Shown here: positions 19,490 through 37,730 of the stretch, in pieces
Numbering within the stretch: the stretch's first letter is position 1
Layout of the letters: each line of letters starts with the position of its first letter
Assembly (NCBI GenBank): GCA_902560815.1
Contig: CACENP010000003.1
Coordinates: 22,246 to 86,245 of the forward strand
Source: an uncultured Pelagibacteraceae bacterium
GTDB taxonomy: Bacteria; Pseudomonadota; Alphaproteobacteria; Pelagibacterales; Pelagibacteraceae
Direction: 5' to 3'
DNA: 64,000 nucleotides
The notes under the pieces: model-generated
Told to the model about the DNA's origin: nothing
Seen by the model: the letters and a program-made list of their open reading frames with translations, nothing else
Databases searched by the model: none
Program-made: the position numbers and the translations under genes

Positions 19490-20574
19490 TATCTTAATTT
19501 AAGAGTAGCAAGTCCTATCATCGCTAAAATAATTGATATAATCCAAAATCTAACTACAACAGTTGACTCGGCCCATCCCTTTTTTTCAAAATGATGGTGT
19601 ATTGGAGCCATTTTAAAAATTCTTTTTCCTGTTATCTTGTATGAAACTACTTGGACAATTACTGAAACTGCTTCTAAAACAAACAGACCTCCTGTTATAG
19701 CTAGAACAATTTCATGTTTTGTTATTATACCTACAGCTCCAAGAGAACCCCCCAGGGCTAATGATCCGGTGTCTCCCATAAATATTTTTGCTGGAGGTGC
19801 GTTAAACCAAAGAAAACCAATACATGCACCTATAATTGAACCACAGAACACTGCAACTTCTCCAACTCCTTGAATATATGGAATATGTAGGTATTCAGAA
19901 AATACAAGATTTCCTGTCACATAACTTATAAATGCAAAGCAGGATGCAACCAATATAACAGGAACTGTTGCGAGTCCATCTAAACCATCAGTTAAATTAA
20001 CAGCATTTGATGATCCAACAATTATAAATAGATAAAATGGAATAAAAAACCAACCAAGATTAATAACTAAATTTTTGAAAAAAGGAAAATACAAATTTTT
20101 TAATTCAGCCGAATTTACATAATAAGTTAAAATATATATTCCAATTAAAGCTATAATAATTTGAAAAATTATTTTAAATTTAAATGAAACGCCTCCAGAA
20201 CTTCCACTTTTTATTTTTTTGTAATCATCATATGCACCAAGAGCTCCTAGGCCACCAACAATTAATATTAAAAACCAATTATAAGGGTTTGATAAATCTG
20301 ACCATAATAATACTCCAGAAAAAATACCAATTAAAATTAGAATACCACCCATTGTTGGTGTTCCAATTTTTTTTACAATATGGTCCGTCGGGCCATCAGA
20401 TCTAATTGGGTTATGAATTTTTTTACTTGAAAAATAATTTATTATTGGATTTCCAATTAAAAAAACTATTAACATTGAAGTAAACATTGATAAACCAGTT
20501 CTTACTGTCAAATATCTAAAAACATTAAAGATAGGGTAGCTATCTACGAGGTTTGTAAATAGACTATACAACAT
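19489..20574 (-). CDS. mraY: phospho-N-acetylmuramoyl-pentapeptide transferase
   Basis: GTPTMGG, NAVNLTDGLDGLA, IFMGDTGS, MAPIHHHFE. Confidence 0.97.
   Translation of the reverse strand: MLYSLFTNLVDSYPIFNVFRYLTVRTGLSMFTSMLIVFLIGNPIINYFSSKKIHNPIRSDGPTDHIVKKIGTPTMGGILILIGIFSGVLLWSDLSNPYNWFLILIVGGLGALGAYDDYKKIKSGSSGGVSFKFKIIFQIIIALIGIYILTYYVNSAELKNLYFPFFKNLVINLGWFFIPFYLFIIVGSSNAVNLTDGLDGLATVPVILVASCFAFISYVTGNLVFSEYLHIPYIQGVGEVAVFCGSIIGACIGFLWFNAPPAKIFMGDTGSLALGGSLGAVGIITKHEIVLAITGGLFVLEAVSVIVQVVSYKITGKRIFKMAPIHHHFEKKGWAESTVVVRFWIISIILAMIGLATLKLR
20052..20083 (+). repeat. 32-bp segment of mraY that is copied, inverted, at 21141-21172
   Basis: aaccaagattaataactaaatttttgaaaaaa at 20052-20083 is the exact reverse complement of 21141-21172. 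Confidence 0.9.
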
Positions 20575-21097
20575 TAATTTTTCCTTTTTTTATATTTAAA
20601 GCAAGACTATTAAGACCAGTAGAATTAGAAGCTTTTATCATTAAATGATCATTATTATTTAAATCGTTTTTAATCAAATGATATATTTCGTTTTTATCTC
20701 TTAAAATTCGACCTCTTTTTTTTCTATCAATAGCATAAAAAGTTTCTTTTATGTCCCTTCCAATAACATAAACTTTTTTTATCGAAGTTTTATTGATAAT
20801 TTTAGACATTTTTTTGTGCAATTTTTTTGAAAATTTTCCAAGCTCGAGCATATCTCCTAATATTAAATATTTATTACTTTGATATTCTTTATCAAAATTT
20901 TCAATAGCAAACTTTAAAGAAAGTGGGTTAGAATTATAACTTTCATCAGTTAAATAAATTACTTTATTATTTAGCCTCACTTTTGATATGTCGCCTCGAG
21001 AAGGTGGTATTTTAAAGTTATAAAATAAATTTTCATTAATATTATTTAAATCATAAAATTCTGAAATTAAAGCTATTGATGCTAAAATATTATTCAA
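20564..21097 (-). CDS. murF: MurF C-terminal fragment (continuation of the interrupted murE-murF fusion)
   Basis: DESYNSNPLS, ILGDMLELG, MIKASNSTG; the open frame extends upstream (KNKTKSFLIKKNLHPYLNN) to the break near 21141. Confidence 0.85.
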   Translation of the reverse strand: MNNILASIALISEFYDLNNINENLFYNFKIPPSRGDISKVRLNNKVIYLTDESYNSNPLSLKFAIENFDKEYQSNKYLILGDMLELGKFSKKLHKKMSKIINKTSIKKVYVIGRDIKETFYAIDRKKRGRILRDKNEIYHLIKNDLNNNDHLMIKASNSTGLNSLALNIKKGKINVV

Positions 21098-21137: not shown

Positions 21138-23432
21138 TTATTTTTTCAAAAATTTAGTTATTAATCTTGGTTTAATAAAAATTTTAGAATTAATTTTATT
21201 AGATATTATTTTTTTAATATATATATCCGATAAAGAATTTTTTTTGCTGAAAGAAATAACATTAATATTTTTTTTTAGTGCAATTTTTTTAATAAAATAA
21301 AAATAATCGTCATCTTGATTAAGTATAAGTTTTCCGCCTTCTGTTATATTATTAATGATTTCAGACTTTGCCTTTGCAATTCCTTCAAGACTTTTAAAAT
21401 TTTTAATGTGGGCATAAGATATATTTGTAATTATACCAAAATCTGGTTCTATTATTTTTGTCAAATAATCAATTTCACCCGCTTTATCCATTCCGGCTTC
21501 AAGAACTACAAATTTATCATTTTTTTTTACATTAAATAAACTTAATGGAACACCATATTTATTATTAAAGGAATTATTTGATTTTGTAGTTGACGCTAAT
21601 TTATTTAAACAGAATGCTAGTAAATCTTTTAAAGACGTTTTGCCTGAGCTACCGGTAATAGAAATAAAATTTGCATTTGAAATTTTTCTTACATCTTTAG
21701 ATGCATTAGTTAAAACTTTAAGCGTATTATTTATTTTAATTTTTTTTAATTTATTTAATTTTCCTAACTTATTTACTATTGCTAAAGAAGCGCCTTTTTT
21801 AATTGCTTCATCTGCATAATCATTACCATCATTTCTAGGGCCTTTAATTGCAAAAAAAACATCATTTTTTTTTATATTTTTTGAATTTATTGATGCTTTG
21901 TTAATTTTCATATCTTTGCTTAACGAGCTTAAATTACATTGTTCATGCAAGATATTTGCTTTCCAATTTTTAAATAATTTTTTATTTTTTAAATTAATTC
22001 CATTTAAAATACATTTTTTATCTGAGAAAAATTTTTTTTTACCTTTATATTCTTGATATATTTCATGACCCTTGCCAGCAACTACTAATATATCTCCTGA
22101 GCTTAAACTTTCTATTGCAACTTTTATTGCTTTTTCTCTCGAGGAAATTTCAACTAATTTATATATAGATATTTTTTTTTTTATTTGATTTCTTATTTTT
22201 TTTGGATTTTCATATCTTGGATTATCATCTGTTAAAAATATCTTATCACAATATTTATTTGCAATTCCACCCATGATAGATCTTTTTTCTTTGTCTCTAT
22301 CTCCTCCACATCCAAAAACAATTTTTATAGAGCTATGACTGAACTGTTCTTTTATACTTTCCAAAGTATGCTTTAATGCATCGGGCGTGTGAGCATAATC
22401 TAGAATTACTTTTGAGTTATTTTTTATATTGCCAATATTCTCAAGTCTTCCTTCAACAGCTTTAATTTTGCCAATTAACTCAATTATTTTGCTGAATTTA
22501 ATTTTGCTTTTACTTGCTGCTAAAGCTGCAAAAAGAAGATTTTTAACCTGAATTTTTCCAATTAAGTTTGTGTTGAATGAGTATTTTTTTTTATTAAATT
22601 CAATTTCTATTTTTTGAACATTTCCTAAATACTGATGTTTTTTTATTAATAAATTAGAATTTTTTTTTCCAATAGTTAGTGATTTTAGATTTTTCTTTAT
22701 ACAAATTTTTTTAAGTATTTTCGATTGAGAAATATCATTATCATATATTATACTTCCACCTTTTTTTGTAAGTTTATTAAATAATATTAATTTTGAATTT
22801 AAATAATCTTTATAAGTTTTATGGTAATCTAAGTGATCGCGAGATAAATTTGTAAAAATTGTTGTATCAAATTTTAATCCATTTAATCTATATTGTTTTA
22901 AACCATGGCTAGATGCTTCTAGAATAGTATTTCTTATTTTTTTTCTTTTTAATAGTGAGAGTGTTTTATGAATAGTGACAGAATCTAAAGTTGTATTATC
23001 TGTTAACTTATTATTATTATTAGTTTTTATGCCAAGAGTTCCAATTGAAGCGACCTTTAATTTTTTATTATTAAGTATTTGAAAATAGAAATTTGCTATT
23101 GAAGACTTACCATTTGTTCCGGTTACAGCAACTAAGTTAGCTGGTGTATTTTTATAATATTTTGAAGCGATTTCTGATACCAGTTTTCTAATATTTTTAT
23201 TATTAATAAATAAAATATTTTCTTTTTTTCCTTGAAAATTTAAGTCAGATACAATTGTTTTTGCACCATTATTAATCGCATTATTAATAAATTTATTTCC
23301 ATTTTTTTTTACACCTCTTATTGAAAAGAAAATATCACCCTGTTTACATTTTCTGCTATCTAAACTTAAATTATTAAATTTATGTAAATAATATTTTTTA
23401 GGTAAATTCTTAAATAATTTTCCAATGTACAT
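21138..23432 (-). CDS. murE: MurE fused to the N-terminal part of MurF; frame broken near 21141-21172
   Basis: MurE motifs VTGTNGKSS, EASSHGL, DYAHTPDAL, FGCGGDRD, DDNPR, AGKGHE; then MurF motifs ITGSSGKTS, SFNNKYGVPLS, EAGMD, AHI. Confidence 0.9.
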   Translation of the reverse strand: MYIGKLFKNLPKKYYLHKFNNLSLDSRKCKQGDIFFSIRGVKKNGNKFINNAINNGAKTIVSDLNFQGKKENILFINNKNIRKLVSEIASKYYKNTPANLVAVTGTNGKSSIANFYFQILNNKKLKVASIGTLGIKTNNNNKLTDNTTLDSVTIHKTLSLLKRKKIRNTILEASSHGLKQYRLNGLKFDTTIFTNLSRDHLDYHKTYKDYLNSKLILFNKLTKKGGSIIYDNDISQSKILKKICIKKNLKSLTIGKKNSNLLIKKHQYLGNVQKIEIEFNKKKYSFNTNLIGKIQVKNLLFAALAASKSKIKFSKIIELIGKIKAVEGRLENIGNIKNNSKVILDYAHTPDALKHTLESIKEQFSHSSIKIVFGCGGDRDKEKRSIMGGIANKYCDKIFLTDDNPRYENPKKIRNQIKKKISIYKLVEISSREKAIKVAIESLSSGDILVVAGKGHEIYQEYKGKKKFFSDKKCILNGINLKNKKLFKNWKANILHEQCNLSSLSKDMKINKASINSKNIKKNDVFFAIKGPRNDGNDYADEAIKKGASLAIVNKLGKLNKLKKIKINNTLKVLTNASKDVRKISNANFISITGSSGKTSLKDLLAFCLNKLASTTKSNNSFNNKYGVPLSLFNVKKNDKFVVLEAGMDKAGEIDYLTKIIEPDFGIITNISYAHIKNFKSLEGIAKAKSEIINNITEGGKLILNQDDDYFYFIKKIALKKNINVISFSKKNSLSDIYIKKIISNKINSKIFIKPRLITKFLKK
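21141..21172 (-). repeat. inverted 32-bp copy of mraY sequence at the murF frame break
   Basis: ttttttcaaaaatttagttattaatcttggtt is the reverse complement of 20052-20083. Confidence 0.9.
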
Positions 23433-31098: not shown

Positions 31099-31175
31099 TG
31101 GTGGGCGATCCAGGACTCGAACCTGGGACCAATACATTATGAGTGTACTGCTCTAACCAACTGAGCTAATCGCCC
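31099..31175 (-). tRNA. tRNA with CAT anticodon, most likely tRNA-Ile2 (lysidine-modified) rather than Met
   Basis: GGGCGATTAGCTCAGTTGGTTAGAGCAGTACACTCATAATGTATTGGTCCCAGGTTCGAGTCCTGGATCGCCCACCA; cloverleaf with encoded CCA; paired G1-C72 (not initiator); C4-G69 favours Ile2. Confidence 0.9.
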
Positions 31176-31287: not shown

Positions 31288-31431
31288 TTACTTTCCAAAT
31301 CCACCAGCAACTAAGTTCCAAACGGCAGTAAGAGCAAAGAAGCTAAACCACCAACCAGTAGCTGGCAAAATAAAACCTAGCATAATAACCTGCTCTATAA
31401 CACCAGCTATTATATATTGTTTCAAAGTCAT
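31288..31431 (-). CDS. unannotated 47-aa hydrophobic small membrane protein
   Basis: ATG..TAA frame MTLKQYIIAGVIEQVIMLGFILPATGWWFSFFALTAVWNLVAGGFGK; SD AAAGGA just upstream of the ATG; 5' hairpin and downstream terminator; below the ORF-track cutoff. Confidence 0.7.
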   Translation of the reverse strand: MTLKQYIIAGVIEQVIMLGFILPATGWWFSFFALTAVWNLVAGGFGK

Positions 31432-31535: not shown

Positions 31536-33101
31536 CTAATTACCTGCCATCCAAGAAATTAATGAACTTGAATTACTTGGATTACTTAAAGCATTTAACC
31601 AAATAATAAATAAAATACTTAAAATGTAAGAAGATAAACCATATTTTCTACTTAACAATTCAAGTTTATTACTTAAATTAAGATTTGTTTTTTGTAATCG
31701 AAAAGAAATTACACTTAAAAAATTTGGAATAGTGGCATACACGTAAGAAACTAATATAATCCAATCAAGTACTGTTAAATACTCTAATTTAGGCAATTCA
31801 GAATCGATCACAAAATTGTATGCGATTAATGATAACAGACAAACTATTGTTATAGTTAATCTGGCCTCTAATTCCTTCGGATCTACCCAAACTACTGACC
31901 AACAAACCATAAGAATCAAAAGCATAGGCAGAATAACTTTGAATATATAATAGCCATGTTTTCTCTCTACTTCTAACTCAATTAACATACCGCTCCAAAA
32001 AACATCTTCATTTGTTATTCTCTTTTCATCAATATTTTCAACTTTAGCAGATATTTTTTTCCATCCGGGTATATCATCTTTAGATAAATATTCGTCTAAA
32101 GCACGAAAAGTAAATGGACTTATTTCAAAAACTCTTGTGTCCAATGAATACTCAGCGTCGACTATTCTTATTTTTAAAGCTTGTCTATCAAAAGGAAAGG
32201 ACCTTAAATTAAAATCATTTAATATTTTAAAATTATTTTTAAAATTTCTTTGTATATTTAACTGATCTTCTTCACGGCCTTCTAATTTAGAATATAAAAA
32301 AATTTTATTTATATTTTTTTCAAAATCTACATCATTTTCAACTACATCTGGAAAATCAACTCCAGCTGGATCAGGTAATATTGAGTCTTCAAAATATTTT
32401 GCGCTAGGTGAACATATATGAAAATTATAACCCCCACTGCTTTTTTTATACCATAAAGATTCATTTGCTATATCTACAATTGGGTGTACTTCGTCGTCCT
32501 GGTAAAATTTAAAATCATAACGATATTCATATGAATTTTCTATTGATGCCGTAAAAATAGATTTTTTTAAATCTATGTCTATAATCTTTAAATCTCTTAA
32601 AGAGTGATATAGAGGTCCATAACTGTCCTCGGATCTTTGCAAATTAATAATCTTTTTCTCACCCTCTGCATTGATTATATCTAGATTTAATTCTTTAACT
32701 TCATCTTCATTTTCAATATACGCCCACCAATTATCCTCAACAATTTTTGATGCATCAATGCCATTTATTTTTAAAATTACATCTCCAGACTTAAGAACTT
32801 TTGCAGTTTCATTATTAAAAGTAAAACCAACCTTAATTTTCGTACCATCGGTATAAAAAGACCATTTATTTAACTCTTCATCATATTTATACGCGGGAGA
32901 AAAACCAAAACCATTTTCTTCATAGTAAGTATAAAAATTTTTAACCATAGGAATATCGCTTTTTTCAACATCCTGATAAAATTTATTACAAGCATACCTT
33001 TCGTCTCTAATTAAATTTTTATCCTCTTCTGCAAATAACAAATTTTGTAAAAATGTTATAAAAATTAAGTTAAGCAGTAATAATTTAAACTTTTTTTTCA
33101 T
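31536..33101 (-). CDS. pentameric ligand-gated ion channel subunit with N-terminal PDZ-like domain
   Basis: signal peptide; GFGF...LKSGDVILKING PDZ-like segment; Pro-loop FNLRSFPFDRQ; IPGW; four TMs (YYIFKVILPMLL..SVVW; LEARLTITIVCLLSLIAYNF; LPKLEYLTVLD). Confidence 0.88.
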   Translation of the reverse strand: MKKKFKLLLLNLIFITFLQNLLFAEEDKNLIRDERYACNKFYQDVEKSDIPMVKNFYTYYEENGFGFSPAYKYDEELNKWSFYTDGTKIKVGFTFNNETAKVLKSGDVILKINGIDASKIVEDNWWAYIENEDEVKELNLDIINAEGEKKIINLQRSEDSYGPLYHSLRDLKIIDIDLKKSIFTASIENSYEYRYDFKFYQDDEVHPIVDIANESLWYKKSSGGYNFHICSPSAKYFEDSILPDPAGVDFPDVVENDVDFEKNINKIFLYSKLEGREEDQLNIQRNFKNNFKILNDFNLRSFPFDRQALKIRIVDAEYSLDTRVFEISPFTFRALDEYLSKDDIPGWKKISAKVENIDEKRITNEDVFWSGMLIELEVERKHGYYIFKVILPMLLILMVCWSVVWVDPKELEARLTITIVCLLSLIAYNFVIDSELPKLEYLTVLDWIILVSYVYATIPNFLSVISFRLQKTNLNLSNKLELLSRKYGLSSYILSILFIIWLNALSNPSNSSSLISWMAGN

Positions 33102-33113
33102 ATTCTCTTCTTT

Positions 33114-34319
33114 TTAATTAAAAGCAGGTCCTTTAAGAAAACCGCCAATACCTTCTAAATTATAAAAATAAATTAACATTATTAATAAAATTGTAAAATA
33201 ACTTACAGGACCTACAAACTGAGCATATCTATCAACTACACTAAGATCTCTACCTGATTTAAGTTTTCTAAGGAATGAATAAACACAGAGAATAGTTGCT
33301 GTCCCTGTATAAAAATACGACAAGAGTATAAAGCAATCTAAAAAAGTTAAGTAAGATAATTTTGGAAGATCTTCATCAATTATAAAGTTATAAGCAATTA
33401 AAGATAATAAACATACTATTGTTACATTGACTTTGGCCTCTAATTGAGAACCTCTAACCCAAAAAACTGACCAAGAAATCACAAGTATAAATAAAATTGG
33501 TAATATTATTTTAAATAAGTAGTAAGACGTTTGTCTTTTGATTGTTAAATCTAGATAAAATCCCTGATATGGTAACTTATCATTGTCAACATAATCATAG
33601 TTATAATAATCTACTTTTTCTAAATCCCAACCTGGAATCTGGATATCACCATCTGTAAAAAAAAATTTGGTTTCTTTATAAACTGGCATTGAAATAGGTT
33701 CTGGAGCTATTTCAACAAGTGTGGATGGAAATTCAGACCATAATTCAAAACTCAATACCTGAGTATCAAATGGAAAGCGTCTAAAATCAAAATTAGCAGA
33801 AAACTTTGCGCTATCTCTTAATCTTGTTCCAACCATTCCATCACTATAAATGTCAACCCAATCAGCATCTCCTCCAAGATTAACGTTTGTTTTTGATTTT
33901 TTATTGTAAAATTCTATTGTTGGATAAAACAATCTATTTGCTTTGCCCCATAATTCTATAGGATTATAAGTACATAAGTAAGTTCTTTTTCCTGTATCAT
34001 CAAACAGGTTAAATTTTTTCAAAGTCTCCGTTAATCTTTTTTCTTTCCAATCATGCCACATAGAATAAAAAGCTTCAAACTCCATTTCTTTACCATTAAT
34101 TTCAAATATTTTTTCTACAAGTAAATCAACATAAACTGTTACAGGCTCTTCAGAAATATAGTCTGGATTAGGATAATTCATAGATTCTAAAATATTATCG
34201 CATTCTTCACGACTTATATTAAAATCTGGATATTTATATATATTCATTGAATGACTTAAACTGAAAATATTTGTAAAACAAAATACAAAAAAAATATAAG
34301 TTAAAAATTTATTTTTCAT
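33114..34319 (-). CDS. pentameric ligand-gated ion channel subunit (GLIC/ELIC-like)
   Basis: signal peptide; PVTVYVDLLVEKI, FYPTIEFYN (loop A), FDFRRFPFDTQ Pro-loop, IPGWDL, KRQTSYYLFKIILP (M1), LEAKVNVTIVCLLSLIAYNF (M2), LPKLSYLTFLD. Confidence 0.92.
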   Translation of the reverse strand: MKNKFLTYIFFVFCFTNIFSLSHSMNIYKYPDFNISREECDNILESMNYPNPDYISEEPVTVYVDLLVEKIFEINGKEMEFEAFYSMWHDWKEKRLTETLKKFNLFDDTGKRTYLCTYNPIELWGKANRLFYPTIEFYNKKSKTNVNLGGDADWVDIYSDGMVGTRLRDSAKFSANFDFRRFPFDTQVLSFELWSEFPSTLVEIAPEPISMPVYKETKFFFTDGDIQIPGWDLEKVDYYNYDYVDNDKLPYQGFYLDLTIKRQTSYYLFKIILPILFILVISWSVFWVRGSQLEAKVNVTIVCLLSLIAYNFIIDEDLPKLSYLTFLDCFILLSYFYTGTATILCVYSFLRKLKSGRDLSVVDRYAQFVGPVSYFTILLIMLIYFYNLEGIGGFLKGPAFN

Positions 34320-35659
34320 ATATTAATAATTTTATTTGCAACTAGAACTCCACTATTATGTGCACCTGCAACTGTACCCCACTCTTTGGCTGTTGCTTCA
34401 CCCGCAAAATATATTCTATCTCCAACTGAGCTTCTTAAGATTTCTCTATATTTAAATGCACCTGGTTCAGCAGATGCCCATGCTCCCATAAATAATGGGT
34501 TTGATGACCAATCAACTGCATGAGATTTAATCAAATCTTTATCGATCTTATTACCAAAAATTTTCTTTAATTCACTTACACCAAAATCAACAGAGGCTTC
34601 TTCACCTGATTTTAATAATTCTTTTCCAAAGTCTCCTCCAGGATCGCACATACATAATTTAGAGTCAGATGGATTTATTGTGATACCAAAACCTTCTGGT
34701 GATTTAGCATTTTGACTATTAATTTTATAATATAAATATGAATCTTTAGCCTTTTTCTTAAATAATTTTTTAAATTTAAAAGTAAGTCGATTGTAATGAC
34801 CCATGGATATTTTAGAAAATGACTCTTGTTTCTCAGTAGATAAATCAGGTGAAAATTTAATTTGTCCAGAATTTAAAACTCCGGTAGAAACAGTTATAAT
34901 ACACTTATTTGATTTGATCTCTCCTTTGTTAGTTATAACTTTTACACCAGCTCCACTCCAATCTATTTTGTTAACTTTGGTATTGAATTGAACAGGAATA
35001 TTTTTAAACATATCAGTTATTAATGAACCATAACCTTCTTTACAATGCCATGGTGCAGACTCAGGAATTTCATAATCATAATTAAAATCTTTACATGAGT
35101 AATTTGTAAAATCTTTACCCATCTCCCACGCTCCTATAATCATGTGAAAAGTATCAAACCAATGATGATCTTGATAAGGAGCCACTTCTGATGGCGAAAC
35201 ATCTTTTCTAGTTTTTGCAATTCCAGCTTCTATGCCATCAAAAACTTTCCATATTTCACCATCATTCGAAATTCTTTTTTGTCCACTATAAAGAGCATAC
35301 ATTTCTTCTGATCTTTCTTTGTACAAATTAAAATTTGAATTTTTTTCACCGAATAACTTAAAAGGATTTGTATCTCCATTATCTAACCATAATGCACCAA
35401 GATCATAAGGTTCACCAAAGATTTCATTATCGGTATAGGCTCTTCCCCCAATTCTGTTGGATGCCTCTAAGCAAATAACTTTTTTTCCATTTTTAATTAA
35501 TTCAGATGTGGCAGCTAAACCAGCTGCTCCTGCACCTATAACAACAACATCATAATTTTGATCGGTGCTTGCTTTAATTAAGTTTGGAAATGATACTAAA
35601 GTTAATCCAGTTATTGAAAATTTTAAAAAACTTCTTCTTTTATTAAACTTTCTTTTCAT
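34316..35659 (-). CDS. Tat-exported flavin monoamine oxidase family protein
   Basis: twin-arginine signal KRRSFLK; VVIGAGAAGLAA FAD motif; LEASNRIGGR; DLGA; C-terminal FAGEAT..GTVAGAHNSG. Confidence 0.9.
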   Translation of the reverse strand: MKRKFNKRRSFLKFSITGLTLVSFPNLIKASTDQNYDVVVIGAGAAGLAATSELIKNGKKVICLEASNRIGGRAYTDNEIFGEPYDLGALWLDNGDTNPFKLFGEKNSNFNLYKERSEEMYALYSGQKRISNDGEIWKVFDGIEAGIAKTRKDVSPSEVAPYQDHHWFDTFHMIIGAWEMGKDFTNYSCKDFNYDYEIPESAPWHCKEGYGSLITDMFKNIPVQFNTKVNKIDWSGAGVKVITNKGEIKSNKCIITVSTGVLNSGQIKFSPDLSTEKQESFSKISMGHYNRLTFKFKKLFKKKAKDSYLYYKINSQNAKSPEGFGITINPSDSKLCMCDPGGDFGKELLKSGEEASVDFGVSELKKIFGNKIDKDLIKSHAVDWSSNPLFMGAWASAEPGAFKYREILRSSVGDRIYFAGEATAKEWGTVAGAHNSGVLVANKIINI

Positions 35660-36326
35660 ATTCTCTTTTTTTTTTTCTTTGGGTTTTTTTAAGTCTAGAA
35701 AACATTCTTAAAGCAACTATCCATGAAATTAAAATTAATAATAATGAAATATAATAGTTTGAACTTAAAAATAAATTATAACATCCGTGTAGAACAAAAG
35801 GCACAATGAATGCAAATAACAAATTATCTTTCTTTTTTATAAAAGAATATTTCATAAAAAAATACCCCATAAACACTCCAAAAACTGCATGTGCGGGAAT
35901 TGCCGAAAAAGATCTCCCAATTGCCATAGCCATTGATGTTGTTTCATAATAATCTGCGAGCAAATACACGTAATAAATATTCTCTAAAGTTGCAAAACCT
36001 AAAGAAACAGTAATTCCATAAACAATACCATCGATTGGTTCGTTAAAATCCTTCATCTTATAAACAAAGAAATATAAGACAGCTAATTTTAAACTTTCTT
36101 CAACTGGTGCAGCTGTTAGAAATGACGAAATAAGACCTTCACTTGCATTGGTGGAATACCATATTTCGCTTAAATAGGTATTTAGGAAGTAGGCTGGTAT
36201 TGTTATTAAAATCCCATATAAAAATACTTTTATTATTTCTTTCGTTGGTTCTTTAAATTTGTCTGAAAAAACAAATATAAAAACAATTAATAAAGATGGA
36301 AAAATTGTTACAAATAATAAATTCAT
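35643..36326 (-). CDS. PrsW-family intramembrane protease
   Basis: DKFKEP, APVEESLK (EExxK), DGIVYG..LGFATLEN (FxxxEN), PAHAVFG, LHGCYN (HxxxN); multiple TMs. Confidence 0.9.
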   Translation of the reverse strand: MNLLFVTIFPSLLIVFIFVFSDKFKEPTKEIIKVFLYGILITIPAYFLNTYLSEIWYSTNASEGLISSFLTAAPVEESLKLAVLYFFVYKMKDFNEPIDGIVYGITVSLGFATLENIYYVYLLADYYETTSMAMAIGRSFSAIPAHAVFGVFMGYFFMKYSFIKKKDNLLFAFIVPFVLHGCYNLFLSSNYYISLLLILISWIVALRMFSRLKKTQRKKKREYEKKV

Positions 36327-36787
36327 TAACTTCTTTCGATTGTTGTTTTAATTTTTAGAATTTTATTTTCTAAAGCTTCAAATGATTCAAATATTTCTTT
36401 TTTTTCAACAGCTGAAATTGCTTTACCTTTATGTCCTTCGTCACTTTTTGCAGAATTAATAACATCCATTAATTGTCCGTGAAGAATTGTAAATTTGATC
36501 AGTAATTCACTTAAATTTTCTTGATCAGTCTCAATTTTTTTTAGTTCCTTTAAAATTATATATTCATGAGCTCTCAATAAATAAGGTGTTAAACCTCTCT
36601 CTACACATGCTCTATCAATTTTAACTGCGTCTCTGTGGTCTAATTGTTGATCTAAATCTGGATCACTACATTTTCTAATAAAAGATTCGCTTTTTCCAGT
36701 GACCTCTTCAATAACATTTGATTTCAAGTCTTTTATTGCTTCTGATAAACCACGTTCAATTGAAGATATTTCTCTAATCTTAGCCAT
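36326..36787 (-). CDS. putative HTH regulator resembling phage regulatory protein CII (CP76/YmfL) family
   Basis: IEEVTGKSESFIRKCSDPD helix-turn-helix-like segment followed by a helical C-terminus (HGQL..I..ISAVEKKEI); resemblance from memory, not searched. Confidence 0.55.
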   Translation of the reverse strand: MAKIREISSIERGLSEAIKDLKSNVIEEVTGKSESFIRKCSDPDLDQQLDHRDAVKIDRACVERGLTPYLLRAHEYIILKELKKIETDQENLSELLIKFTILHGQLMDVINSAKSDEGHKGKAISAVEKKEIFESFEALENKILKIKTTIERS

Positions 36788-36925: not shown

Positions 36926-37219
36926 ATGAAAAAAATGAAAACATTAATAGCATCATTTGTAATATCAATTGTTGCAATCTCATCAGCATCAGCTGCTTGC
37001 TTAAGCTGGAGCTGCAGTTCCTCGAATTGGGATAACAGTTCGTTGAACTATAAAAACAGTCCCTTAAATTGGGATAATAGTAACTTGAACTGGAACAATA
37101 GTAATTTAAATTTGAATAGAAATAATGGAATTTATGATACTAACGGAAATAGTTTAGGTTATACAAGCAATGGTAATATATTCAGCGATAGCGGTTTAAG
37201 ACTTGGATATTTTGACTAA
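36926..37219 (+). CDS. secreted Asn/Ser-rich heptad-repeat protein
   Basis: signal peptide ending ASA; repeats [W/Y]xNSxLN; two C-terminal (I)(Y/F)xxxGxxLGY hairpin-like units; SD GAAAGGA. Confidence 0.8.
   Translation: MKKMKTLIASFVISIVAISSASAACLSWSCSSSNWDNSSLNYKNSPLNWDNSNLNWNNSNLNLNRNNGIYDTNGNSLGYTSNGNIFSDSGLRLGYFD
37025..37108 (+). repeat. four imperfect 21-bp tandem repeats encoding the 7-aa repeats
   Basis: aattgggataacagttcgttg / aactataaaaacagtccctta / aattgggataatagtaacttg / aactggaacaatagtaattta. Confidence 0.75.
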
Positions 37220-37283: not shown

Positions 37284-37607
37284 TTATACGCCAGCTAACA
37301 TCTGGCCAAAATTTGATAGAACTCCCAACACTATTGCAATTTTTGCAAGCACTGCCCAAAATTTAGGGCCTTTATAATTGTTTGAAGATCTCCAAATCCC
37401 AACAACTGTATAAATTTGAAATGGTATTAAAAAGCCATAAAGGGCATCATCGCTCATTCCCATAATACCTACAAATAAACCAACGATCATTCCAAAAATA
37501 ATTCCTAAGCCAACACCTACACCCCAGTAAGACATTGGAAGAGAAAGCTGTCCGTTCCAGAAACGTACAAAAAAGTTTTCTTTTTTTGATTTACTTTTTC
37601 TAGCCAT
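37284..37607 (-). CDS. hypothetical membrane protein (about 3 TMs)
   Basis: FWNGQLSLPMSYWG, VGIWRSS, W..LAK motifs; hydrophobic segments. Confidence 0.75.
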   Translation of the reverse strand: MARKSKSKKENFFVRFWNGQLSLPMSYWGVGVGLGIIFGMIVGLFVGIMGMSDDALYGFLIPFQIYTVVGIWRSSNNYKGPKFWAVLAKIAIVLGVLSNFGQMLAGV

Positions 37608-37655: not shown

Positions 37656-37730
37656 TGGTGGGCCGTGTTGGTTACGCTCCAACTACCCCTGCAATGTCAA
37701 TGCAGTACTCTACTATTGAGCTAACGGCCC
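37656..37730 (-). tRNA. tRNA-Val(GAC) with non-canonical D- and T-loops
   Basis: GGGCCGTTAGCTCAATAGTAGAGTACTGCATTGACATTGCAGGGGTAGTTGGAGCGTAACCAACACGGCCCACCA; all four stems pair; anticodon loop TTGACAT; encoded CCA. Confidence 0.88.

What the first reader, a model, noticed from the sequence alone, without database searches (positions are those of the whole stretch)
32634..32918. PDZ-like domain fused in front of the ligand-binding domain of a pLGIC
Seen: aa ~62-156 of the 521-aa subunit contain GFGF (resembling the GLGF carboxylate-binding loop), LKSGDVILKING, and a closing LNLDIINAEGEKKIINLQR strand pair. This is the pattern of bacterial protease-type PDZ domains, and it follows the signal peptide, so it would be periplasmic. 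Established: periplasmic PDZ domains (DegS, HtrA, CtpA) sense exposed protein C-termini; other prokaryotic pLGICs carry different N-terminal add-ons (e.g. DeCLIC). Inference: a channel gated or modulated by peptide C-termini, which would link envelope proteolysis or stress to ion flux.
Basis: partly seen in the sequence, partly recalled or inferred. Interest (0 to 1): 0.8.

Follow-up and report, generated by a model that had tools for sequence, protein, structure and literature searches.

The report
Protease-linked PDZ ion channel of SAR11
This ocean-bacterium gene encodes a relative of animal neurotransmitter-gated ion channels that carries a predicted peptide-binding (PDZ) domain inside its outer ligand-binding part and almost always lies next to a protease gene, so it is likely a channel that responds to protein ends exposed by proteolysis rather than to a small molecule.

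Summary
The PDZ is real. It is inserted inside the ligand-binding domain, between the N-terminal helix and strand β1, not fused in front of it.

Fold: the domain model (pLDDT 88) matches only PDZ folds (Z 10.4 to CtpB), and the family profile hits RseP/HtrA PDZs (E 2e-13). The Φ-G-Φ loop is kept (G66 in 118 of 120).

Family: it is large, marine and mostly SAR11, and patchy (10 of 151 genomes). The pore is near-invariant. The classical agonist site is not conserved, whereas the PDZ-less paralogue next door keeps one.

Neighbours: 44 of 46 genome loci have PrsW or a secreted trypsin-like protease within 3 kb. Among the 151 genomes, all 7 of those trypsins and 6 of 8 caspases sit beside this channel. 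A 31-nt scar suggests PrsW once overlapped this gene's start.

Best reading (0.45): a proteolysis-sensing channel in which peptide binding to the PDZ pulls β1. Binding, ligand and gating are untested. PrsW also accompanies PDZ-less channels.

Ten literature searches found no description. The scan noted the PDZ–PrsW pairing before on other genomes (three findings). The trypsin/caspase cassette, the lost agonist site and a conserved 47-aa microprotein are added here.

The parts
31536..33101 (-). PDZ-bearing pentameric ligand-gated channel subunit, 521 aa (P0001)
   Evidence: (ELIC E 3e-17)
33030..33101 (-). Likely signal peptide, residues 1-24
   Evidence: sequence pattern (basic start, hydrophobic core, LFA end); inferred, no predictor run
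32961..33002 (-). Helix 34-47, equivalent to the N-terminal helix of animal receptors; holds C38, likely disulfide partner of C230 (32412-32414)
   Evidence: C38 118/120, C230 120/120; 108/110 and 107/110 among 50%-cluster representatives; disulfide inferred
32625..32921 (-). Inserted PDZ domain of bacterial protease type, residues 61-159
32901..32912 (-). Carboxylate-binding loop G64-F65-G66-F67 (family consensus D-F-G-F)
   Evidence: G66 118/120, F67 114/120; compare CtpB Gly113-Ile-Gly-Ala116 (PMC3808539)
31959..32621 (-). Beta-sandwich extracellular domain, residues 161-381, with Pro-loop FPFD at 32187-32198 and a non-conserved agonist site
31584..31958 (-). Four-helix pore domain; M2 at 31797-31871 (E-2', T2', V6', L9', A13', F16')
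31539..31583 (-). Conserved tail after M4 (N507, S511, W517, M518), absent from the trypsin-linked clade
31288..31431 (-). Conserved 47-aa hydrophobic microprotein that travels with the cassette
   Evidence: 28 of 179 loci, one a duplicate; 74-98% identical; 2 of 151 genomes, both with the PDZ channel
33085..33115 (.). Copy 1 of a 31-nt direct repeat: scar of the PrsW-stop / channel-start overlap
   Evidence: 94% identical, 2558 apart; reads KRREYEKKV* here and KKREYEKKV* at the PrsW end
33114..34319 (-). PDZ-less channel subunit, 401 aa (P0002), with a conserved aromatic/acidic agonist site
34316..35659 (-). Flavin amine oxidase with a twin-arginine-like signal; partner of the PDZ-less subunit
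   Evidence: PF01593 E 1e-43; directly upstream of the short channel in all 9 loci that hold it
35643..35673 (.). Copy 2 of the 31-nt repeat, at the PrsW stop
35643..36326 (-). PrsW-family intramembrane protease, catalytic motifs intact
   Evidence: (PF13367 E 2e-36)
36326..36787 (-). Phage CII-like regulator (CP76 family, below cut-off), first gene of the likely operon
36926..37219 (+). Small secreted repeat protein with weak beta-flower matches; occasional cassette member
   Evidence: E 0.004; 4 of 41 loci
37284..37607 (-). 107-aa membrane protein of no known family ending MLAGV; candidate PrsW substrate
31099..31175 (-). tRNA-Met, island boundary
37656..37730 (-). tRNA-Val, island boundary

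Best explanation
This is a pentameric ligand-gated channel subunit with a predicted PDZ domain inserted into the top of its periplasmic domain, encoded in a mobile cassette with proteases, and it likely works as a proteolysis sensor that would change its opening when the PDZ binds newly exposed protein C-termini.

Steps. (1) Shown: channel family, PDZ family, conserved pore, conserved Φ-G-Φ loop, non-conserved agonist site, protease neighbours. (2) Predicted: the PDZ hangs on two strands; the strand that leaves it continues as β1 (one strand, residues 157-177), whose far end is the β1-β2 loop that touches the pore in this family (recalled). (3) Inferred: PrsW, or in other clades a secreted trypsin-like protease with a caspase or CHAT protease, cuts a cassette or envelope protein. 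The new hydrophobic C-terminus binds the PDZ, the PDZ swings as it does in CtpB, and β1 passes the movement to the gate. (4) Inferred: the pore more likely passes cations (Glu at -2', no Pro), so opening would depolarise the cell. Whether this serves stress signalling or phage defence is open.
For: Fold.
Insertion site.
Loop: apart from the start Met, C38, G66 and F67 are the only residues ahead of β1 kept in >=90% of 120 homologues. Among 110 representatives at 50% clustering, G66 is kept in 90 and F/I/V/L at 67 in 106.
Selection: PDZ dN/dS is 0.12-0.64 in 16 of 16 pairs, so it is under purifying selection.
Agonist site lost: at pore identity 0.7-0.8, extracellular identity is 0.32 (3832 pairs) against 0.47 (1844 pairs) in the PDZ-less family. 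No residue at 312-318 reaches a third of 110 rows.
Proteases: 44 of 46 genome loci have PrsW or the trypsin within 3 kb, and 29 have PrsW within 100 bp. So do 48 of 50 metagenome contigs with >=700 bp upstream, counting PrsW alone. In an even 151-genome sample, 10 of 10 PDZ-channel genomes have one of the two. All 7 full-length trypsin orthologues and 6 of 8 caspases lie beside a PDZ channel, and none beside a PDZ-less one. These proteases have signal-like N-termini and intact catalytic motifs.
Junction scar in this window.
Precedent for PDZ allostery: CtpB, DegS (PMC3808539).
Against: No ligand is identified, and no binding or current was measured.
PrsW is not specific to the PDZ form: 4 of 5 genomes with only a PDZ-less channel also have PrsW within 2.6 kb, and 7 of 19 PrsW genomes show no channel.
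The PDZ is the least conserved part (24% identity typical) and tolerates long insertions; 22 of 131 full-length representatives missed the family PDZ profile at E<0.01. Some members lack the loop glycine (G66 in 90 of 110), and that Gly is also needed for the fold (recalled).
The best sequence match is an RseP-type PDZ tandem, described as a size filter more than a peptide sensor (recalled).
This window has no trypsin or caspase gene of that type.
The genomes are kin, so the counts are not independent events.
Selectivity is ambiguous: the -1' residue is Ala/Ser, which the rule in PMC549065 assigns to anion channels.
Confidence: 0.45

Rival explanations
1. The neighbouring protease cuts the channel itself (tail after M4, PDZ linkers or a loop), and cleavage opens it, as with bacterial gasdermins. 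The PDZ is an auto-inhibitory or modulating cap, not a receptor for a free peptide.
For: Same protease classes as gasdermin loci (caspase C14, CHAT; bioRxiv 2021.06.07.447441 passages). PrsW follows PDZ-less channels too. The main PrsW-linked clade has a conserved post-M4 tail that the trypsin clade lacks. DeCLIC's extra domain modulates rather than gates (PMC12664993).
Against: No cleavage motif was identified. The trypsin and caspase genes go only with PDZ forms. Two PrsW-linked members (L037, L040) lack the tail. The loop is conserved as if it binds a carboxylate.
Confidence: 0.2
2. The PDZ is a docking site that tethers a partner (protease, microprotein or 107-aa protein) by its C-terminus; gating comes from another cue such as pH, ions or lipid.
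For: Scaffolding is the common PDZ role (recalled). Strongly conserved small membrane proteins travel with the cassette. GLIC-like pore residues; the agonist site is lost.
Against: The PrsW tail is predicted cytoplasmic (positive-inside inference). Partner C-termini are not uniform. The PDZ sits at the apex, far from membrane-bound tails.
Confidence: 0.15
3. The PDZ subunit co-assembles with the PDZ-less, likely amine-binding subunit into a heteropentamer; an amine gates it, the oxidase ends the signal, and the PDZ only tunes it.
For: Adjacent genes in this window; both types in 9 of 46 loci. M2 is identical over 13 residues. The short subunit keeps the agonist site.
Against: Three single-contig, 99%-complete genomes (G079, G085, G125) hold only a PDZ channel, and G024 only a short one. 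The oxidase-plus-short-channel block looks like a later 2.56-kb insertion.
Confidence: 0.1
4. The PDZ is a drifting passenger and the protease neighbours are island hitch-hikers with no functional tie.
For: Low PDZ conservation. PrsW occurs without a channel in 7 of 19 genomes. The loci are variable islands; 10 of 45 have restriction, DISARM-like or HerA genes within the flank.
Against: dN/dS<1 in all 16 pairs. PrsW overlaps or abuts the channel start at several unrelated chromosomal sites and in a SAR86 genome. All 7 trypsins lie beside the channel.
Confidence: 0.1

Closest known systems
DeCLIC (Desulfofustis channel, PDB 6v4a, 9eva)
   Same: Bacterial pentameric channel with an extra periplasmic domain that may act on gating; Z 20.0, rmsd 3.4, 307 aligned.
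   Different: DeCLIC has two jelly-roll lobes as an N-terminal domain and is calcium-sensitive (PMC12664993, PMC9897478 passages). Here one PDZ is inserted after the first helix, and proteases are neighbours.
ELIC, GLIC, sTeLIC
   Same: Pro-loop FPFD, four-helix pore, hydrophobic gate; ELIC E 3e-17; sTeLIC Z 21.2.
   Different: No extra domain. The ELIC and sTeLIC chains align only from model residue ~160. ELIC's loop-B Glu/Phe (recalled) are not kept, and the ring of acids is at -2', not -1'.
Bacterial channels fused to PBP-I, Cache or MCP-N domains (Tasneem et al., PMC549065)
   Same: Sensor add-ons and operon partners proposed to feed ligand to the channel.
   Different: Those are small-molecule binders placed N-terminally; the paper's main text has no occurrence of PDZ.
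C-terminal processing proteases CtpB/CtpA/Prc and HtrA/DegS PDZ domains
   Same: Best structural matches of the inserted domain; X-Φ-G-Φ loop; peptide binding switches the host protein (PMC3808539).
   Different: The host is an ion channel, not a protease; a long hairpin follows the loop strand; the specificity residues vary.
Bacterial gasdermin-protease defence loci
   Same: A membrane pore gene beside caspase C14 or CHAT proteases (43 of 50 gasdermins have a protease neighbour).
   Different: Unrelated pore fold; here the proteases carry signal peptides, and the commonest partner is PrsW. No defence role is shown.

Membership tests
[quoted passage not shown] | Beta-sandwich extracellular domain followed by four transmembrane helices | tested here: met
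   Model pLDDT 86; Foldseek E 1e-16 to GLIC and GABA-A; Z 22.6
[quoted passage not shown] | Pro-loop motif with acidic residue and basic residue before M1 | tested here: met
   F302-P303-F304-D305 and R380 invariant in 120 and in 36 diverse rows
[quoted passage not shown] | Aromatic agonist box at loops A-F (typical, not universal) | tested here: not met
   Loop B and C positions unconserved in this family; kept in the PDZ-less paralogue. Loop labels recalled from ELIC and GABA-A numbering. Proton-gated members also lack a classical box (recalled), so membership stands.
[quoted passage not shown] | Five-fold assembly and ion conduction | not testable with these tools
   Only a monomer was modelled
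PDZ domain | PDZ fold | tested here: met
PDZ domain | X-Φ-G-Φ carboxylate-binding loop | tested here: met
   G64-F65-G66-F67; G66 118/120, F67 114/120
PDZ domain | Pfam gathering score | tested here: inconclusive
   18.8-19 bits against 23.2 for this protein; other members reach E 1.9e-7
PDZ domain | Binds C-terminal peptides in an open groove | not testable with these tools
DeCLIC-type multidomain channels | Jelly-roll lobes N-terminal to the ligand-binding domain | tested here: not met
   The extra domain is a PDZ and lies after the first helix
Gasdermin-protease defence systems | Gasdermin pore-forming fold | tested here: not met
   The protein has the pentameric channel fold over its whole length
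Gasdermin-protease defence systems | Adjacent caspase-like or CHAT protease | tested here: inconclusive
   Present in 9 of 46 loci (6 caspase, 3 CHAT), not in this window, which has PrsW
Known anti-phage systems (PADLOC 2.0) | Match to a defence-system model, and protection from phage | tested here: inconclusive
   0 of 7 island proteins match, apart from a generic FAD-binding hit; the library dates from 2023; protection untested

The most novel reading that the evidence does not exclude
A periplasmic protease cascade (caspase or CHAT, trypsin-like, PrsW) makes a peptide agonist that opens a neurotransmitter-receptor-type channel through its PDZ. The sensor half is swapped between strains while the pore is kept. 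The current depolarises the cell as a defence against phage: a protease-gated pentameric channel used in immunity by the most abundant ocean bacteria.
Probability: 0.2. Interest if true: 0.92.

Novelty: new variant of a known kind. Interest (0 to 1): 0.7.

Why it matters
The natural ligands and roles of bacterial pentameric channels are largely unknown; DeCLIC is the only one whose extra domain has been partly characterised (PMC12664993). This family offers a defined, testable input (peptide C-termini made by a neighbouring protease) and a defined coupling route (PDZ to β1 to gate). If true, it would be a new gating mode for the Cys-loop superfamily and a link between envelope proteolysis and membrane potential. 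It would also be a template for protease-sensing channels. Two cultured SAR11 strains carry it (records L008 and L022).

Tried and rejected
Complex prediction: PDZ with the last 32 residues of the 107-aa protein gave no answer (score 0.00, mark 0.32). This is neither support nor evidence against.

PrsW's own tail (E-K-K-V/I/L) as the PDZ ligand: rejected. It is predicted cytoplasmic, it is partly dictated by overlap with the next gene's MKKKF start, and it is not kept in 5 of 19 aligned PrsW.

The 107-aa protein as a DUF805 member: not supported by pairwise comparison (E 0.012, 10 of 37 identical). No Pfam family in the Atlas.

Double-PDZ forms: none among 150 representatives; the longer members carry insertions.

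Phage carriage: no relative in viral contigs with these patterns.

Outside the family: 21 of 400 other genomes of the phylum have a channel match, none reaching the PDZ part of the profile.

Other scans: the promoter scan was at chance level (33 found, 38.5 expected). Rfam gave only the two tRNAs. No RNA holder was listed. Contigs from four DNA runs cover parts of the island, but none bridges the PDZ-β1 junction among the pieces shown.

One PDZ clade: not rejected, not shown (p-AU 0.51).

Defence enrichment: 10 of 45 loci have such genes nearby, but no baseline was measured.

Hu et al. 2020 (DeCLIC, PNAS) was not held.

Full report
OBSERVATION. The protein is a pentameric ligand-gated channel subunit: ELIC E 3e-17, Foldseek E 1e-16 to GLIC and GABA-A receptors, Pro-loop FPFD and pre-M1 Arg invariant. 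It lies in a 6.5-kb island between tRNA-Met and tRNA-Val. The host is SAR11-like: 34 of the first 38 related genome loci are titled Pelagibacteraceae or Pelagibacter.

THE DOMAIN IS A PDZ. Alone it scores under the Pfam cut-off (18.8 bits, E 0.002). A 34-row alignment of the region gives 19 of 34 members hitting PF00595 at E<=0.1. Its profile finds the PDZ tandem of an RseP homologue at E 2e-13, with DegP, DegQ, HtrA1, SpoIVB and animal PDZ domains below. The domain model has pLDDT 87.8. Foldseek found nothing at E<=0.001, but its rows from E 1.2e-3 are HtrA, CtpA, CtpB and other PDZ proteins. The wide structural search gives Z 11.5 (4l8n), 11.0 (3ch8) and 10.4 (CtpB) over 91-92 residues; the 50 rows shown are PDZ domains or proteins that carry one (by title or recalled). 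The loop G64-F65-G66-F67 corresponds to CtpB's Gly113-Ile-Gly-Ala116 (PMC3808539, passages).

INSERTED, NOT FUSED IN FRONT. In the full model (pLDDT 86.1), helix 34-47 precedes the PDZ and overlays the N-terminal helix of animal receptors: AChBP aligns 201 of 203 residues over model 36-381. The PDZ-less paralogue P0002 has the same Cys-bearing helix, about 16 residues before β1 against about 122 here, and its C116 aligns with C230. C38 and C230 are kept in 108 and 107 of 110 distant representatives, C40 and C116 in 116 and 121 of 121 short subunits. A disulfide that pins the helix is inferred. The model shows one strand from 157 to 177, so the PDZ exit runs into β1, whose far end (D177, K179 conserved) is the loop that contacts the pore in this family (recalled). 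This is a prediction on a monomer; I could not inspect coordinates.

FAMILY. 814 proteins at E<=0.001 among 7995 candidates scored. At 50% clustering, 131 of the best 150 are >=450 aa, and 109 of these hit the family's own PDZ profile at E<0.01; 22 do not, several with long insertions. In an even sample of 151 family genomes (own included; G061 is flagged unpublished and serves only in the denominator), 18 matched. Three were weak hits at E~1e-3 over the PDZ part only and were dropped. Of the other 15, 10 have the PDZ form and 5 only a PDZ-less form. It also occurs in a SAR86 and four other alphaproteobacterial single-cell genomes. It was not found in 400 other genomes of the phylum or in viral contigs. 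On a thinned tree (54 of 92 rows; near-copies, split genes, long branches and most outgroups left out), 34 PDZ and 11 short subunits form one marine group (97% SH-aLRT); one PDZ origin is not rejected (p-AU 0.51).

CONSERVED PORE, VARIABLE SENSOR, LOST AGONIST SITE. Pore residues E412, T416, V420, L423, A427 and F/Y430 are kept in 104-110 of 110 rows. At matched pore identity the extracellular domain is less conserved than in the short family (0.32 vs 0.47 at 0.7-0.8; 0.41 vs 0.55 at 0.8-0.9). The short family keeps E192, W194, E196, Y238, D247, Y251, W88 and W91 at >=90%; the matching loop-B and loop-C positions of the PDZ family vary freely (loop names recalled). PDZ dN/dS is 0.12-0.64 and pore dN/dS 0.02-0.24 over 16 pairs. 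Synonymous distance differs sharply between halves of some pairs (PDZ 1.73 vs pore 0.27; 1.16 vs 0.13). On 74 sequences, PDZ columns fit the extracellular-domain tree nearly as well as their own (92 log units; random-column control 72-83) and the pore tree far worse (1278). So the periplasmic half likely travels as a unit and recombines against the pore; the pore tree is information-poor, which inflates this. Selectivity is unsettled: Glu is at -2' as in GLIC (recalled), while -1' is Ala/Ser, the anion pattern in PMC549065 (passages).

PROTEASE NEIGHBOURS. Of 46 genome loci with a PDZ channel (L088 dropped as a duplicate; two split genes counted), 29 have PrsW within 100 bp, 38 within 3 kb, 10 have a secreted trypsin-like protease within 700 bp, and 44 have one or the other within 3 kb. 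The two exceptions lie near contig ends. Among 76 metagenome loci, 67 had a called PDZ channel, 50 with >=700 bp upstream, and 48 of those have PrsW. The pairing recurs at unrelated chromosomal sites. In the 151 genomes, the full-length trypsin orthologue occurs 7 times, each beside a PDZ channel. Caspase C14 occurs 8 times, 6 in a caspase-trypsin-(CII)-channel block; the other two showed no channel in the stretches read. Three further loci have trypsin then a CHAT protease. In this window, a 31-nt repeat 2558 bases apart copies the PrsW-stop/next-start junction. The amine oxidase and short channel were therefore likely inserted into an older PrsW-channel overlap. A CII-like regulator (8 of 10 PDZ genomes), a 107-aa membrane protein and a 47-aa microprotein (2 of 151 genomes, both with the PDZ channel) complete the cassette.

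AGAINST. PrsW is also within 2.6 kb of the channel in 4 of 5 genomes that have only a PDZ-less one, and 7 of 19 PrsW genomes show no channel. So PrsW is tied to this channel group, not to the PDZ as such. The PDZ is the most variable part, and G66 is replaced in 20 of 110 distant rows. No ligand emerged. The genomes are related, so the nominal tests overstate. Ten of 45 loci have restriction, DISARM-like or HerA genes nearby, without a baseline.

MECHANISM. I favour a proteolysis-sensing channel (0.45): a cassette protease exposes a hydrophobic C-terminus, the PDZ binds it and shifts as in CtpB, and β1 carries the shift to the gate. Rivals are direct cleavage of the channel (0.2), PDZ as a docking site (0.15), a heteropentamer with the short, likely amine-gated subunit (0.1) and hitch-hiking (0.1). 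The heteromer cannot be obligatory, since three closed genomes hold only the PDZ form.

WHAT IS KNOWN. Ten full-text searches (listings and abstract starts only) showed no paper on a PDZ-bearing or PrsW-linked bacterial channel. I read term-matched passages, not whole texts, of PMC549065 (add-on domains PBP-I, Cache, MCP-N; PDZ 0 occurrences), PMC4795631 (PDZ 0; terminal parts discarded on purpose; one Pelagibacter entry in its supplement, trimmed to residues 111-414), PMC12664993 and PMC9897478 (DeCLIC; PDZ 0), PMC3482391 (PrsW as site-1 protease), PMC3808539 and bioRxiv 2021.06.07.447441 (gasdermins; supplements not seen). Subscription papers are mostly missing, including Hu et al. 2020. One Atlas cluster already shows PF00595 on 12% of members, so databases hold the signal. 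Three earlier notes of this scan describe the PDZ channel and its PrsW neighbour on other genomes; they came after my own neighbourhood analysis and are not independent support. A search for the caspase-trypsin block among them found nothing.

VERDICT. A real PDZ insertion that defines a new variant of pentameric channel, with strong genomic ties to periplasmic proteolysis and an untested mechanism. Interest 0.7.

Noticed in passing
window 33114-35659 (-): Amine oxidase with a twin-arginine-like signal directly upstream of a PDZ-less channel that keeps an aromatic/acidic agonist box, in 9 of 9 genome loci that hold the oxidase. It may be an amine-gated channel with its own ligand-removing enzyme, like a synapse.
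   Followed up: partly
window 31288-31431 (-): 47-aa hydrophobic microprotein, 74-98% identical in 28 of 179 loci, found only with the PDZ-channel cassette in the 151-genome sample; possible auxiliary subunit or PrsW substrate.
   Followed up: partly
L078-L083 (e.g. L079 4023-8618): Block of secreted caspase C14, secreted trypsin-like protease and PDZ channel, all with intact catalytic motifs; periplasmic caspases are rare in the sample (8 of 151).
   Followed up: partly
L019 9491-15092; L024 9476-16689; L027 9629-17603: PDZ channel followed by a trypsin-like protease and 1000-1480-aa CHAT proteases, two with their own canonical N-terminal PDZ.
   Followed up: partly
window 36326-36787 (-): Phage CII-like regulator heads the operon; phage 186 CII is controlled by membrane proteases (recalled), so it could be a PrsW target.
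   Followed up: no
L001, L003, L004, L110, L122, L123, L126, L131, L143, L144, L157: Tandem, divergent PDZ-channel paralogues; possible mixed pentamers or sensor arrays.
   Followed up: no
L021 7070-8696; L034 7273-8795: Channel genes split between the PDZ part and the pore part in two single-cell genomes; the L034 gene is intact in near-identical L032, so error or recent breakage.
   Followed up: no
L010 11795-14733: Terminase small subunit and DNA polymerase A genes just downstream of the cassette, suggesting a phage-derived element.
   Followed up: no
window 21138-23432 (-): 764-aa MurE-MurF-type fusion ORF that covers only about 750 of 965 model positions and ends inside MurF; the next ORF (20564-21097) may hold the rest.
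   Followed up: no
P0366, P0369 (692 aa): Distant family members with insertions of 100-170 residues in the PDZ region.
   Followed up: no
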